From the NCBI RefSeq assembly GCF_965641715.1, contig NZ_OZ282453.1: 64,000 nt of DNA. The stretch is one strand, 5' to 3'. Every line of letters starts with the position of its first letter. Position 1 is the first letter of the stretch. A program made the position numbers. This DNA comes from Escherichia coli (GTDB taxonomy: Bacteria > Pseudomonadota > Gammaproteobacteria > Enterobacterales > Enterobacteriaceae). Below are positions 24,301 to 27,300 of the stretch, one piece after another.

Positions 24301-27300
24301 CGCATATGCGGGTGATGCGTGATCTGATAAAGCAGCATCGTTCTCCCATGGAGCTGATGACGATGCTGCGGTGACGTGAACTTAAACGGGCTGCCCCTGA
24401 TGCGACATCCGCGTTGCCAGCGGTAGCCAGCACAGCACGATCAACAATCCCATTAAGGTCATCAACAACCCCAGGCTGCCCTGACCGGTTTGCGGCAACA
24501 TCGCTGAGAGCGACGCCAGCACGCCGGAACCAATGTTTTGCAGACCGCCGACCAGCGCGCCAGCCGTGCCCGCCAGGAAGGGGAACGGCTCCATCGCGCC
24601 GCTGGTCGCCAGCGGAAACAGCATCCCGGCACCGAAAAAGAACAGCGCGGCGGGAACAAGCAGCGTCCAGACATTCATCACGCCAAACCAGTCGGGGATC
24701 CACATCAGCAAGCCAGCCAGCAGGCAGCAGATAACCGACTGCCACATCAACGTTGAGAAGCGTTTATTAGGACGCCCGGCAAACCATGCCCCAAAAAATG
24801 CCGCCGGAATCGGCAGAATAAACAAAATACTGACCGTCATACTGCTCAGCCCTAACACCGCGCCCATCAGCACGCCGGAGCAGGCTTCAAAGGCGGCAAT
24901 CCCGGCCAGACCGCCAATCAGCATCAGCAAATAACAGTTAAAACCGCCGTTACCGAAAAGCGTTTTATAACTGGTAAGCAGGCGCGTGCGCGGTGCATCG
25001 ACCGGACGCGTTTCCGGCATCCAGCGGGCCATACTGAAGGTCACACCAGCACAAAGAACCAACAAAAAGAGATAACAGGCGCGCCAGTTCCACATCGTAT
25101 CCAGCAGACCGCCGATTAGCGGTGCGAGCAACGGACTGACAAGAATCCCCATGTTTAACAGGCTGTTAGCATGGCGCAACTGTGTCCGTTCATATAAATC
25201 ACGCGGCAAAGTACGCGCCATTACGCCGCCAACGCCGGTGCCCATCCCCTGCATCGCGCTGGCGGCAATCAATACCGTCAAACTGGAGGTCGTGACCGCG
25301 ACCAGCGTTGCCAGCATAAAAATGGACATTCCGACGAGGATCACTGGTCGGCGACCCACGCGGTCGGATATCGGGCCATAAAACAGCTGCGAGACACCGT
25401 AAGTCAGCAGATAAGCGCCCATTACGCTCTGCACCGCCCCTTCACGGACGTTGAGATCGCGCGCCATATCGGCAATAGCTGGAATATAAATGGTTTGCGC
25501 CATCTGACCGACGGCCACGAGTAATACCAACATCAATAACAAATTGACGTTTCTATGCCTTTTCATTATCACGGATGCTTTTATAAAAATAATTAGAATA
25601 AGTCACTACGCATTCACATAAATGCGGGAGAGGAATCTATCACATTGATGAATGTTAGCCAGATATACGCCAGGAATGGGGAATTGTTTAGCGGCAGAAT
25701 ATGTAAACAAAAGCGGCAATAAATGTTGCCGGGAGAGATGGTAGGGCGGATAAGATGCGTCAGCATCGCATCCGACACCAACCCGCACGCTAAATATAAA
25801 AGGGGAGCGGTTACCCGCTCCCCTTTGGTGCGACTTGAATCTGAATTACTTCAGGTATTTCAGAACAGCATCAAGCAGTTGCAGTGCTGCAACAATGAGT
25901 TTGAGGATAAGAATGGCGATATCCACCAGGCTCATACGCGTCTCCTGTGGTTCAGGAGCACTGCCAGCTGACGTACCTTTCCGCTGCCTGTTGCCAGCTG
26001 TTGTGCACGCGGTATCTCAAGGAGAAACGTTGTGCTTGTTGACATAACACAGTGTGCTCACGCGGGGTTAAGGCGCTGACGGCACCACCCGTTTCAGCCA
26101 GGACTTAGTGCGCCGGGTAACGATGCGGCCCCCGCATAACACATTGCGTACAGTGATATTATAGAAGTTTACTGTATAAATAAACAGTAATATTTAGACA
26201 AAACGCAAACTGTGATCGATACTCAACTATGTACTAAATACGTCAAAATTCGTGCCGAAATTGCGCGTTCTGCGCGGAACAGGTATACTTTCAGTGTTGA
26301 CATAATACAGTGTGCTTTGCGGTTACCAGCCGCAGGCGACTGACGAAACCTCGCTCCAGCGGGGTTTTTTGTTACCTGCAATTCAGTACAAAACGTGATC
26401 AACCCCTCAATTTTCCCTTGCTGAAAAATTTTCCATTGTCTCCTCTGTAAAGCTGTGCTTGTATAAATATTGTTAAACACAAAACCAACAAGGTCCCCAA
26501 TGACTACTTCCATGCTCAACGCAAAACTACTACCAACTGCGCCATCCGCCGCAGTGGTCGTCGTGCGTGTGGTGGTGGTCGTCGGCAATGCGCCGTAGGG
26601 ACTGGAACAACACACGATTCCAAAACCCCGCCGGCGCAAACCGGGCGGGGTTTTTCGTTTAAGCACCTCCCGGAAAGTCGGCCCAGAAGAAAAGGACTGG
26701 AGCATGGCAAGTTCGGGCACAACATCGACGCGTAAGCGCTTTACCGGCGCAGAATTTATCGTTTATTTCCTGGAACAGCAGGGCATTAAGATTGTGACGG
26801 GTATTCCGGGCGGTTCTATCCTGCCTGTTTACGATGCCTTAAGCCAAAGTACGCAAATCCGCCATATTCTGGCTCGCCATGAACAGGGCGCGGGGTTTAT
26901 CGCTCAGGGAATGGCGCGCACCGACGGTAAACCGGCGGTCTGTATGGCCTGTAGCGGACCGGGTGCGACTAACCTGGTGACCGCCATTGCCGATGCGCGG
27001 CTGGATTCCATCCCGCTGATTTGCATCACCGGTCAGGTTCCCGCCTCGATGATCGGCACCGACTCCTTCCAGGAAGTGGACACCTACGGCATCTCTATCC
27101 CCATCACCAAACACAACTATCTGGTCAGACATATCGAAGAACTCCCGCAGGTCATGAGCGATGCCTTCCGCATTGCGCAATCAGGCCGCCCTGGCCCGGT
27201 GTGGATAGACATTCCTAAGGATGTGCAAACGGCAGTTTTTGAGATTGAAGCACAGCCCGCGGTGGCAGAAAAAGCCGCCGCACCTGCCTTTAGCGAAGAA

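What the first reader, a model, noticed from the sequence alone, without database searches (positions are those of the whole stretch)
25846..26370. Complete tisB/istR-1 type I toxin-antitoxin locus with LexA box and a recognisable sRNA-target duplication
The 29-aa TisB frame is intact on the minus strand. A near-consensus SOS box (TACTGTATAAATAAACAGTA) lies upstream. A divergent, roughly 75-nt sRNA candidate with its own -35/-10 and an intrinsic terminator matches expectations for IstR-1. The first 21 nt of that sRNA recur (20/21) inside the tisAB leader, which is exactly what a trans-encoded antisense pairing site looks like at DNA level. This is known biology, but the ORF track misses all of it.
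Basis: partly seen in the sequence, partly recalled or inferred. Interest (0 to 1): 0.3.

Follow-up and report, generated by a model that had tools for sequence, protein, structure and literature searches.

The report
Intact E. coli tisB/istR-1 toxin-antitoxin locus
This is the well-studied E. coli tisB/istR-1 locus, in which a DNA-damage-induced 29-residue membrane toxin is held in check by a small antisense RNA; it is complete here and correctly read by the first-stage reader, but it is ordinary, already-known biology.

Summary
The window is E. coli chromosome, 99% identical to K-12 MG1655 across emrD–ysdE–tisB–istR–ivbL–ilvB.

- **tisB:** 25846-25935 (-) passes both NCBIfam TisB equivalog models and Pfam PF13939.
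- **istR:** Rfam RF01400 scores 143 bits at 26241-26370.
- **K-12 transfer:** annotation places IstR-1 at 26298-26370 (the 75-nt form starts at 26296) and IstR-2 at 26231-26370.
- **SOS box:** 26170-26189 matches the LexA consensus at 18/20.
- **Repeat:** the 21-nt sRNA 5' end recurs 20/21 at 26038-26058. In RNA this is 21 contiguous pairs with one G·U, at tisAB +94..+114, the published ribosome standby site.
- **Other genera:** in 50 tisB/istR loci the pairing is kept, with two compensatory changes.

"Duplication" holds only for the 22-nt pairing segment. TisB here is the N2S allele, which is the majority E. coli form.

Novelty: already known. Interest: low.

The parts
25799..25826 (-). Intrinsic terminator of the tisAB transcript: a 12-bp perfect stem and 4-nt loop, followed by a U-rich tail. 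The 3' end is about 25793 if the RNA is 359 nt.
   Evidence: Terminator scan. Inverted repeat I1 is 100% complementary. The published 359-nt tisAB RNA (PMC2577331) fits +1 at about 26151 and an end at about 25793.
25846..25935 (-). tisB, the 29-aa hydrophobic type I toxin. This is the N2S allele relative to K-12.
   Evidence: ORF list. NCBIfam NF011340 scores 69.9 bits (cut-off 53) and TIGR04459 scores 61.5 bits (cut-off 38). Pfam PF13939 scores 37.6 bits. RefSeq annotates tisB at the same place in K-12 and in the closest strains. N2S is the 85% majority allele in E. coli and is toxic (PMC11264685).
25941..25946 (-). tisB Shine-Dalgarno AGGAGA, 5 nt upstream of the AUG, predicted to be sequestered in a hairpin.
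   Evidence: Sequence and positions +206..+211. Matches the published RBS AGGAGA (PMC11264685). Unpaired probability is about 0.16 in the +1, +42 and +106 forms.
25932..26045 (-). tisA, a 37-codon frame. Its AUG lies inside the IstR-1 target and its UGA overlaps the tisB AUG. It is reported not to be translated.
   Evidence: ORF list. No Pfam or NCBIfam family. Described as an untranslated ORF that holds the antisense binding site (PMC2826370). The start codon is absent in 38 of 51 related loci, and the frame length varies from 26 to 46 aa where it is present.
26038..26058 (-). IstR-1 target, the single-stranded core of the ribosome standby site. In the mRNA it is 5'-AGCACACUGUGUUAUGUCAAC-3', at tisAB +94..+114.
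   Evidence: 20/21 repeat of the sRNA 5' end. Best non-self duplex in the 64-kb window at -38.8 kcal/mol, against -25.8 for the next. Cofold pairs IstR-1 nt 1-22 with +93..+114. The published single-stranded standby region is +85..+111 and the RNase III product is +106 (PMC6690012).
26110..26151 (-). The 5'-most 41-42 nt of the primary tisAB transcript (+1..+42). Predicted to pair with the standby region and removed by processing to give the active +42 mRNA.
   Evidence: The MFE fold of the 359-nt RNA pairs +3..+21 with about +84..+105. The +85..+111 unpaired probability is 0.24 in +1 against 0.41 in +42. The model is from PMC6690012. The +1 position at about 26151 is inferred from the -10 box, the 359-nt length and the +106 site falling inside the duplex.
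26158..26163 (-). tisAB promoter -10 hexamer, TATAAT.
   Evidence: Sequence. Identical to K-12. The published tisB -10 is TATAAT (PMC11264685 Table 1).
26170..26189 (.). LexA (SOS) box TACTGTATAAATAAACAGTA. It overlaps the -35/spacer of the tisAB promoter and lies 5 nt upstream of the IstR-2 -35.
   Evidence: Unique in the window. 18/20 to the consensus, 0 in shuffles. It is the only CTGT-N8-ACAG in 64 kb. A LexA box sits at a conserved position in all 50 related loci. LexA control is reported in PMC2826370 and PMC11264685.
26195..26223 (+). IstR-2 promoter: -35 TAGACA (K-12 has TGGACA), 17-nt spacer, -10 GATACT.
   Evidence: Promoter scan. The published IstR-2 elements are TGGACA and GATACT (PMC11264685 Table 1). 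The G-to-A difference at 26196 is shown.
26231..26370 (+). IstR-2, a 140-nt LexA-controlled long form that contains all of IstR-1.
   Evidence: K-12 ncRNA annotation transferred through the alignment. Rfam RF01400 covers 26241-26370. Its role is described in PMC2826370.
26261..26289 (+). IstR-1 promoter (constitutive): -35 TTGCGC, 17-nt spacer, -10 TATACT.
   Evidence: Sequence. Identical hexamers are published for K-12 (PMC11264685 Table 1). TTGC.. and TATA(C/G/A)T are conserved at a fixed distance from GTTGAC in all 50 related loci.
26296..26370 (+). IstR-1 antitoxin sRNA (75 nt from 26296; RefSeq K-12 gives 73 nt from 26298). It has a free 5' tail, an internal hairpin and a terminator hairpin plus U-run.
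   Evidence: K-12 annotation transfer. Fold energy is -30.6 kcal/mol, z = -3.5, with nt 1-12 unpaired. Terminator scan.

Best explanation
This is the chromosomal tisB/istR-1 type I toxin-antitoxin module of E. coli, intact. In unstressed cells LexA sits on the SOS box (26170-26189), which overlaps the tisAB promoter, and keeps transcription low. IstR-1 is made constitutively from its own promoter. After DNA damage LexA is cleaved and tisAB is strongly transcribed leftward from about 26151. The primary 359-nt RNA is inert, because its 5' end pairs with the standby region and the tisB Shine-Dalgarno is buried in a hairpin. Removal of the first 41 nt gives the +42 mRNA, in which a single-stranded standby site (about +85..+111) lets 30S subunits and protein S1 load and then reach the structured RBS about 100 nt downstream. 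The free 5' 21 nt of IstR-1 pair with +94..+114, which blocks standby binding. RNase III cleaves the duplex to give the dead +106 RNA. When tisAB RNA outnumbers IstR-1, the 29-aa TisB peptide inserts into the inner membrane, depolarises it and promotes growth arrest and persistence. Shown here: all sequence elements, the family membership, the pairing and its conservation, and predicted structures that fit the model. Inferred from K-12 experiments at 99% identity: transcription, processing, RNase III cleavage, standby, toxicity and the persister phenotype.
For: Identity and synteny with K-12, and transfer of the tisB, IstR-1 and IstR-2 annotation. TisB family models are above their curated cut-offs. 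Rfam istR scores 143 bits. The LexA box is unique and near-consensus. The 20/21 repeat is far above chance. The duplex is the best non-self target in 64 kb. Cofold gives IstR-1 nt 1-22 pairing with +93..+114, with a ddG of about -26 kcal/mol. IstR-1 has an unpaired 5' tail. The +1 5' end sequesters the standby region, and the SD is sequestered in all forms. A pattern anchored only on the IstR hairpin and terminator found 50 loci in about 15 genera, each with a divergent 29-aa TisB frame, a LexA box and the sRNA/target pairing. The pairing is 97.8% paired against 45% or less for slid controls, with two A-U/G-C compensatory pairs. The published mechanism is in PMC6690012, PMC2826370, PMC4147584, PMC2577331 and PMC11264685.
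Against: Nothing in the sequence contradicts the model. There are four limits. No expression data exist for this strain. The +1 position (about 26151) is inferred, not mapped here. The predicted accessibility gain from +1 to +42 is modest (0.24 to 0.41). Co-variation rests on only two compensatory positions among 15 distinct sequence combinations, and 19 of 51 loci carry one mismatch. Three substitutions relative to K-12 fall in regulatory or RNA parts: 26196 in the IstR-2 -35, 26282 in the IstR-2 5' hairpin and at -14 of the IstR-1 promoter, and 26358 in the IstR terminator loop. Their effect is untested, though none touches a pairing base or a terminator stem.
Confidence: 0.97

Rival explanations
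1. The locus is present but decayed in this strain. It would be a remnant whose toxin or antitoxin no longer works because of the substitutions relative to K-12: TisB N2S, the IstR-2 -35 change, the -14/hairpin change and the terminator-loop change.
For: There are 8 substitutions in 701 nt relative to K-12, three of them in promoter or RNA parts. About 23% of complete E. coli genomes lack the module at this site or carry it interrupted, so loss is tolerated.
Against: The TisB frame is full length and scores above the equivalog cut-offs. N2S is the majority allele (85%) and is at least as toxic as the K-12 form (PMC11264685). The pairing segments, LexA box, both -10 boxes, the IstR-1 -35 and the RBS are identical to K-12. 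The IstR fold and terminator stem are intact and the changed base lies in the loop. TAGACA is as close to TTGACA as TGGACA is.
Confidence: 0.02
2. The 22-nt repeat is a relic of a local DNA duplication with no present role in RNA pairing, and IstR acts mainly on other targets, for example as an Hfq-binding sRNA.
For: The two copies are direct repeats on one DNA strand, as a duplication would leave. Rfam labels istR an Hfq-binding RNA. The role of IstR-2 is reported as unclear (PMC2826370).
Against: A neutral relic would drift independently in each copy. Instead the two copies change together across genera, giving compensatory A-U/G-C pairs and 97.8% paired cells. Similarity does not extend beyond the pairing segment. 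Experiments in K-12 show IstR-1 blocks 30S binding and TisB translation and triggers RNase III cleavage (PMC6690012; PMC4147584).
Confidence: 0.01

Closest known systems
tisB/istR-1 (tisAB-istR) type I toxin-antitoxin locus of E. coli K-12 MG1655 (b4618, b4616)
   Same: Same chromosomal site (emrD-ysdE-tisB-istR-ivbL-ilvB) and 99% nucleotide identity. The LexA box, -10 boxes, IstR-1 -35, RBS, tisA frame and both pairing segments are identical. The divergent layout and the sRNA lengths are the same.
   Different: TisB carries Ser2 instead of Asn2, which is the majority E. coli allele. The IstR-2 -35 is TAGACA rather than TGGACA. There is a C-to-G change at 26282 and a G-to-A change in the IstR terminator loop at 26358. 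Two terminator-loop or spacer changes lie outside the functional elements.
Other divergently encoded SOS or 5'-UTR-targeting type I systems of E. coli: dinQ/agrB, zorO/orzO, shoB/ohsC
   Same: Each has a small hydrophobic toxin with a long structured 5' UTR and an sRNA encoded divergently nearby. The sRNA pairs through a short stretch (about 18-21 nt) with the UTR rather than with the RBS. 5' processing gives an active mRNA. dinQ is also LexA-controlled (PMC3567139, PMC3919570, PMC4147584).
   Different: The toxin families and sRNA sequences are unrelated. This locus matches only the TisB and istR models.
hok/sok (plasmid R1) type I system
   Same: An antisense RNA acts at a distance from the toxin RBS. 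The primary transcript is inert and needs processing. RNase III cleaves the duplex (PMC4147584).
   Different: Sok is cis-encoded, overlapping mok, and acts by blocking translation of a coupled upstream reading frame. Here the upstream frame tisA is not translated, and the sRNA competes with standby ribosomes instead.

Membership tests
tisB/istR-1 type I toxin-antitoxin | A 29-aa hydrophobic TisB toxin ORF that matches the TisB family models | tested here: met
   NCBIfam NF011340 69.9 bits (cut-off 53) and TIGR04459 61.5 bits (cut-off 38), both matching 1-29 of 29. Pfam PF13939 37.6 bits (cut-off 25).
tisB/istR-1 type I toxin-antitoxin | An IstR sRNA gene encoded divergently from tisB that matches the istR covariance model | tested here: met
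   Rfam RF01400 143.3 bits against a gathering score of 45, full-length model 1-130, on the + strand at 26241-26370, opposite to tisB.
tisB/istR-1 type I toxin-antitoxin | About 21 nt of complementarity between the IstR-1 5' end and the tisAB 5' UTR (standby site) | tested here: met
   21 contiguous pairs including one G·U. Conserved with compensatory changes in other genera. The literature gives 21 nt (PMC4147584).
tisB/istR-1 type I toxin-antitoxin | A LexA box at the tisAB promoter (SOS control) | tested here: met
   An 18/20 consensus box at 26170-26189, 6 nt upstream of the -10 TATAAT. LexA binding itself was not tested.
tisB/istR-1 type I toxin-antitoxin | Conserved chromosomal context between emrD and ivbL-ilvBN | tested here: met
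   Same gene order as K-12 and other E. coli. IvbL matches NF007579.
tisB/istR-1 type I toxin-antitoxin | Structured mRNA: an inert +1 form, an accessible standby site after 5' processing, and a sequestered RBS | tested here: inconclusive
   Thermodynamic predictions agree in direction: +85..+111 unpaired probability 0.24 in +1 against 0.41 in +42, and SD 0.16. These are predictions only, and the processing site was not mapped.
tisB/istR-1 type I toxin-antitoxin | TisB toxicity and membrane depolarisation, repression by IstR-1, and RNase III cleavage to +106 | not testable with these tools
   Rests on K-12 experiments (PMC6690012, PMC2826370, PMC11264685). The N2S allele was shown to be toxic in PMC11264685.

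The most novel reading that the evidence does not exclude
In the E. coli lineage IstR-1 may make a second contact with tisAB mRNA. IstR-1 nt 39-50 (AGGCGACUGACG, window 26334-26345) are complementary to tisAB +71..+81 (window 26081-26071), just 5' of the standby site. This would extend the known 21-bp interaction and could affect binding rate or the 5' structure element of the standby site. The cofold MFE includes this contact, and in the window it is well above shuffles (z = -4.3).
Probability: 0.08. Interest if true: 0.25.

Novelty: already known. Interest (0 to 1): 0.08.

Why it matters
It matters little as a discovery. tisB/istR-1 is the textbook chromosomal type I toxin-antitoxin system and the model case for ribosome standby and SOS-linked persistence. 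The practical value lies in annotation. A length-thresholded ORF track misses the 29-aa toxin, both sRNAs and the LexA box, and this check shows they can be recovered reliably from sequence alone. The locus in this strain is the intact majority form (TisB Ser2), whereas roughly a quarter of complete E. coli genomes lack it or carry it interrupted. As a by-product, the cross-genus comparison gives clean co-variation support for the sRNA-target pairing. It also shows that the tisA start codon is not conserved outside the Escherichia/Citrobacter/Salmonella group.

Tried and rejected
1. Extended homology between the istR-1 gene and the tisAB leader beyond the 22-nt repeat, which would indicate a larger duplication. 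The local alignment of the remainder scores 17, which 260 of 2000 dinucleotide shuffles and 8.9% of genomic control segments reach. Rejected.

2. A second IstR-1/tisAB contact (nt 39-50 with +71..+81). It is strong in the window (z = -4.3), but the median z across 51 loci is -0.8, and only a CUGA/UCAG core is general. It is kept only as a low-probability novel case.

3. The generic sigma-70 scan did not find the IstR-1 or tisAB promoters; it found only the IstR-2 promoter. They were placed instead by identity to published K-12 elements and by conservation.

4. The tisA frame as a real gene. It has no family hit, and its start codon is missing in 38 of 51 loci. Treated as non-coding, in line with the literature.

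5. Extra copies of the module in the window. There are none: one istR hit in 64 kb and one repeat pair.

6. One of the 53 pattern hits (L021, an Oscillospiraceae MAG) has no TisB frame and no LexA box, so it is a chance match. Two loci (L008, L030) lacked stored upstream DNA and were left out.

7. Pfam, NCBIfam and PADLOC on the two ORFs between ilvN and uhpA gave nothing.
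Full report
**What is in the sequence**

Reading 25500-26700 and listing ORFs of 20 aa or more shows the following elements.
- A 29-aa frame, MSLVDIAILILKLIVAALQLLDAVLKYLK, lies at 25846-25935 on the minus strand.
- A 37-codon frame lies at 25932-26045 (-). Its stop overlaps that AUG.
- The palindrome TACTGTATAAATAAACAGTA lies at 26170-26189.
- A terminator-like hairpin plus T-run lies at 26353-26370 on the plus strand.
- A perfect 12-bp hairpin at 25799-25826 lies just downstream of the small frame on the minus strand.

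The flanking genes are emrD (24382-25572, -), the 24-aa ysdE (25648-25722, +) and the ilvB leader peptide ivbL (26501-26599, +; NCBIfam NF007579).

**Is the observation more than chance?**

- **SOS box.** It is the only match in 64 kb to the LexA consensus TACTG(TA)5CAGTA at up to 3 mismatches. It has 2 mismatches, and no shuffle produced a match. It is also the only CTGT-N8-ACAG in the window.
- **Repeat.** The 21-mer GTTGACATAATACAGTGTGCT (26296-26316) recurs with one mismatch at 26038-26058 on the same DNA strand. The chance expectation is 0.02 matches, and no shuffle gave two. The repeat finder reports 22 nt at 21/22.
- **Pairing.** tisAB is transcribed from the opposite strand, so its RNA carries the reverse complement. 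The single DNA mismatch (T against C) becomes a U·G wobble. The RNA duplex is therefore 21 contiguous pairs.

**What it is**

- **sRNA.** Rfam finds one family over this stretch: istR (RF01400) at 26241-26370 (+), scoring 143.3 bits against a gathering score of 45 with the full-length model.
- **Toxin.** The 29-aa frame passes both NCBIfam TisB equivalog models (69.9 and 61.5 bits; cut-offs 53 and 38) and Pfam PF13939.
- **Distribution in E. coli.** A 701-nt query across the locus matches 5418 of 5426 complete E. coli genomes. All matches are chromosomal, and the best are 99.4% identical. RefSeq annotates tisB under the match.
- **K-12 comparison.** Alignment to K-12 MG1655 shows 8 substitutions and no indel.
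- **Annotation transfer.** Transferring the K-12 annotation gives tisB at 25846-25935, IstR-1 at 26298-26370 (73 nt) and IstR-2 at 26231-26370 (140 nt). In all 50 related loci GTTGAC follows the -10 box after exactly 6 nt, so a start at or near that G is plausible.

**Regulatory elements**

- The tisAB -10 TATAAT is at 26163-26158 (-). The LexA box begins 6 nt upstream of it and covers the -35/spacer region.
- The IstR-2 promoter was picked up by the consensus scan: TAGACA, 17-nt spacer, GATACT, at 26195-26223. It ends 7 nt before the transferred IstR-2 start.
- The IstR-1 promoter is TTGCGC, 17-nt spacer, TATACT, at 26261-26289.
- The tisB RBS is AGGAGA at 25946-25941.
- All of these hexamers are the ones published for K-12, except that the IstR-2 -35 reads TGGACA there (PMC11264685, Table 1).
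- A +1 at about 26151 is inferred from three facts. It lies 7 nt after the -10 box. A 359-nt RNA (PMC2577331) would end at about 25793, right after the terminator. The published RNase III product +106 would then fall inside the duplex, which spans +94..+114.

**Pairing and structure**

- With the 5' 25 nt of IstR-1 as probe, the tisAB site is the best non-self duplex anywhere in the 64-kb window on either strand: -38.8 kcal/mol against -25.8 for the next. The only stronger hit, -43.3 kcal/mol, is the complementary strand of the istR-1 gene itself.
- IstR-1 folds into two hairpins with nt 1-12 free (-30.6 kcal/mol, z = -3.5).
- In the predicted fold of the full 359-nt RNA, the 5' end (+3..+21) pairs with about +84..+105. 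In the +42 form that region is largely open.
- The mean unpaired probability of +85..+111 rises from 0.24 in +1 to 0.41 in +42. The Shine-Dalgarno stays at about 0.16 in every form.
- Cofolding IstR-1 with the +42 RNA gives pairs between IstR-1 nt 1-22 and +93..+114, with a net gain of about -26 kcal/mol.
- These predictions match the published mechanism: the +1 form is inert, the +42 form is active through a standby site, IstR-1 blocks 30S/S1 binding, and RNase III then produces +106 (PMC6690012; PMC4147584).

**Independent evidence from other genera**

- A DNA pattern anchored only on the IstR internal hairpin and terminator, which left the pairing segment free, found 53 stretches in one-genome-per-species contigs.
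- Fifty of them carry a divergent 29-aa TisB-like frame and a LexA box 136-149 nt from the hairpin. The genera include Citrobacter, Enterobacter, Kosakonia, Lelliottia, Leclercia, Trabulsiella, Phytobacter, Siccibacter, Superficieibacter, Pluralibacter, Raoultella, Huaxiibacter, Pseudenterobacter, Salmonella and Escherichia. Two loci lacked stored upstream DNA, and one (an Oscillospiraceae MAG) is a chance hit.
- Across those 50 loci and the window itself (51 in all), the sRNA 5' end finds a 20-21-pair partner at the same place in the leader.
- On the 15 distinct sRNA/target combinations, 97.8% of cells are paired, against 45% or less when partners are slid by 1-3 columns.
- Two positions change on both sides. 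sRNA nt 7 with its target is A-U in Escherichia, most Citrobacter and Salmonella, and G-C elsewhere. sRNA nt 12 with its target is A-U in most loci and G-C in Kosakonia. Four more positions vary only through G·U wobbles.
- The variation is small but clean. It argues for selection on pairing rather than a passive duplication relic.

1. The similarity between the istR-1 gene and the leader does not extend beyond the 22-nt segment: 260 of 2000 shuffles reach the score of the remainder. "Duplication" is therefore justified only as a description of the pairing segment.
2. The locus also includes IstR-2, the tisA frame and the tisAB terminator.
3. tisA matches no family and is reported untranslated (PMC2826370). 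Its AUG, which lies inside the target, is ACG in 38 of 51 loci.
4. The mechanism is standby-site competition plus RNase III cleavage, not RBS occlusion.

**Differences from K-12**

- TisB has Ser2 instead of Asn2 (25931). This is the majority E. coli allele (85%) and is at least as toxic (PMC11264685).
- The base at 26196 makes the IstR-2 -35 TAGACA instead of TGGACA, a minority form.
- The base at 26282 (G instead of C) breaks one predicted pair in the IstR-2-specific 5' hairpin. It also sits at -14 of the IstR-1 promoter.
- The base at 26358 (A instead of G) lies in the 4-nt loop of the IstR terminator. It is absent from all four E. coli references compared.
- None of these touches a pairing base, a -10 box, the LexA box, the RBS or a terminator stem. 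I see no sign of decay.

**Population context**

- 4150 of 5426 genomes (76%) cover at least 80% of the query.
- Examples of the remainder are THO-015, where ysdE is followed directly by ivbL with no tisB/istR, and NDM_11.16372, where an ISKox3 element is inserted at about the LexA box.
- This agrees with the published figures of 82% full, 3% interrupted and 15% absent (PMC11264685).
- The window carries the intact form, in a single copy.

**Verdict**

The locus is the already-known tisB/istR-1 type I toxin-antitoxin system, complete and apparently functional. Interest is low.

The only untested idea left open is a possible second IstR-1/tisAB contact (IstR-1 nt 39-50 with +71..+81). It is strong in E. 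coli but is not conserved as such in other genera.

Noticed in passing
window 28937-30244 (+) and 30460-31956 (+): Two ORFs of 435 and 498 aa sit between ilvN and uhpA, which are adjacent in K-12. Strain GF3-3 annotates both as hypothetical proteins. They have no Pfam, NCBIfam or PADLOC match. This is an uncharacterised two-gene accessory insert.
   Followed up: partly
L006, L007, L009, L010, L014, L017, L023, L025-L028, L031, L033, L035, L037, L042, L044-L046, L048-L050 and others; 28 nt tisAB-proximal to the main LexA box: In 24 of the 50 non-window loci a second CTG-N10-CAG motif (for example CACTGCGAACATACTCAGTA) lies over the predicted tisAB -10/+1 region. The window and K-12 lack it. It could be a second weak LexA site, or a by-product of the conserved mRNA 5' structure.
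   Followed up: no
window 26043-26045 (tisA AUG) and related loci L004-L056: The tisA start codon lies inside the IstR-1 target. It is ACG in 38 of 51 loci, and where an AUG exists the frame length varies from 26 to 46 aa. So tisA is not conserved as a gene, and the A-U/G-C compensatory pair coincides with the U of that AUG.
   Followed up: yes
window 26334-26345 (IstR-1 nt 39-50) and 26071-26081 (tisAB +71..+81): A predicted second sRNA-mRNA contact of about 11 bp appears in the cofold MFE. Its z is -4.3 in the window, but the median z over 51 loci is -0.8, and only a CUGA/UCAG core is general. The DNA similarity is not significant on its own.
   Followed up: partly
L057 (E. coli THO-015) and L058 (E. 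coli NDM_11.16372): The module is variably present in E. coli. THO-015 has ysdE followed by ivbL with no tisB/istR. NDM_11.16372 has an ISKox3 transposase gene inserted at about the LexA box, which separates tisB from istR. About 24% of complete genomes cover less than 80% of the locus.
   Followed up: partly
window 26358, 26282 and 26196: The window carries rare or minority alleles in the sRNA genes. A at 26358 (IstR terminator loop UCCA instead of UCCG) is absent from K-12, F9792, GF3-3 and E69. G at 26282 breaks a pair in the IstR-2 5' hairpin and puts a G at -14 of the IstR-1 promoter. A at 26196 makes the IstR-2 -35 TAGACA.
   Followed up: partly
window 25735-25790 and L003: A REP-like palindromic element lies between ysdE and the tisB terminator. 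Strain GF3-3 has 139 extra bases in this interval relative to the window. PMC2577331 also notes a REP here.
   Followed up: no
window 511-591 (-), 6068-6110 (-), 11491-11563 (+): There are other Rfam matches above the gathering score: AsdA (antisense RNA of dnaA mRNA, 101.9 bits), ES036/CssrF sRNA (47.4 bits), and the ROSE_2 thermoregulator upstream of ibpA (100.4 bits). The window evidently starts near dnaA.
   Followed up: no
window 26135-26146, 26043-26054, 26301-26312: A third, shorter copy of the repeat core (CATAACACATTG, 11/12) lies in the first 20 nt of the tisAB transcript region. In the RNA this 5' segment is predicted to pair with the region just upstream of and overlapping the IstR-1 target. 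That is the published basis for the inert +1 form.
   Followed up: partly
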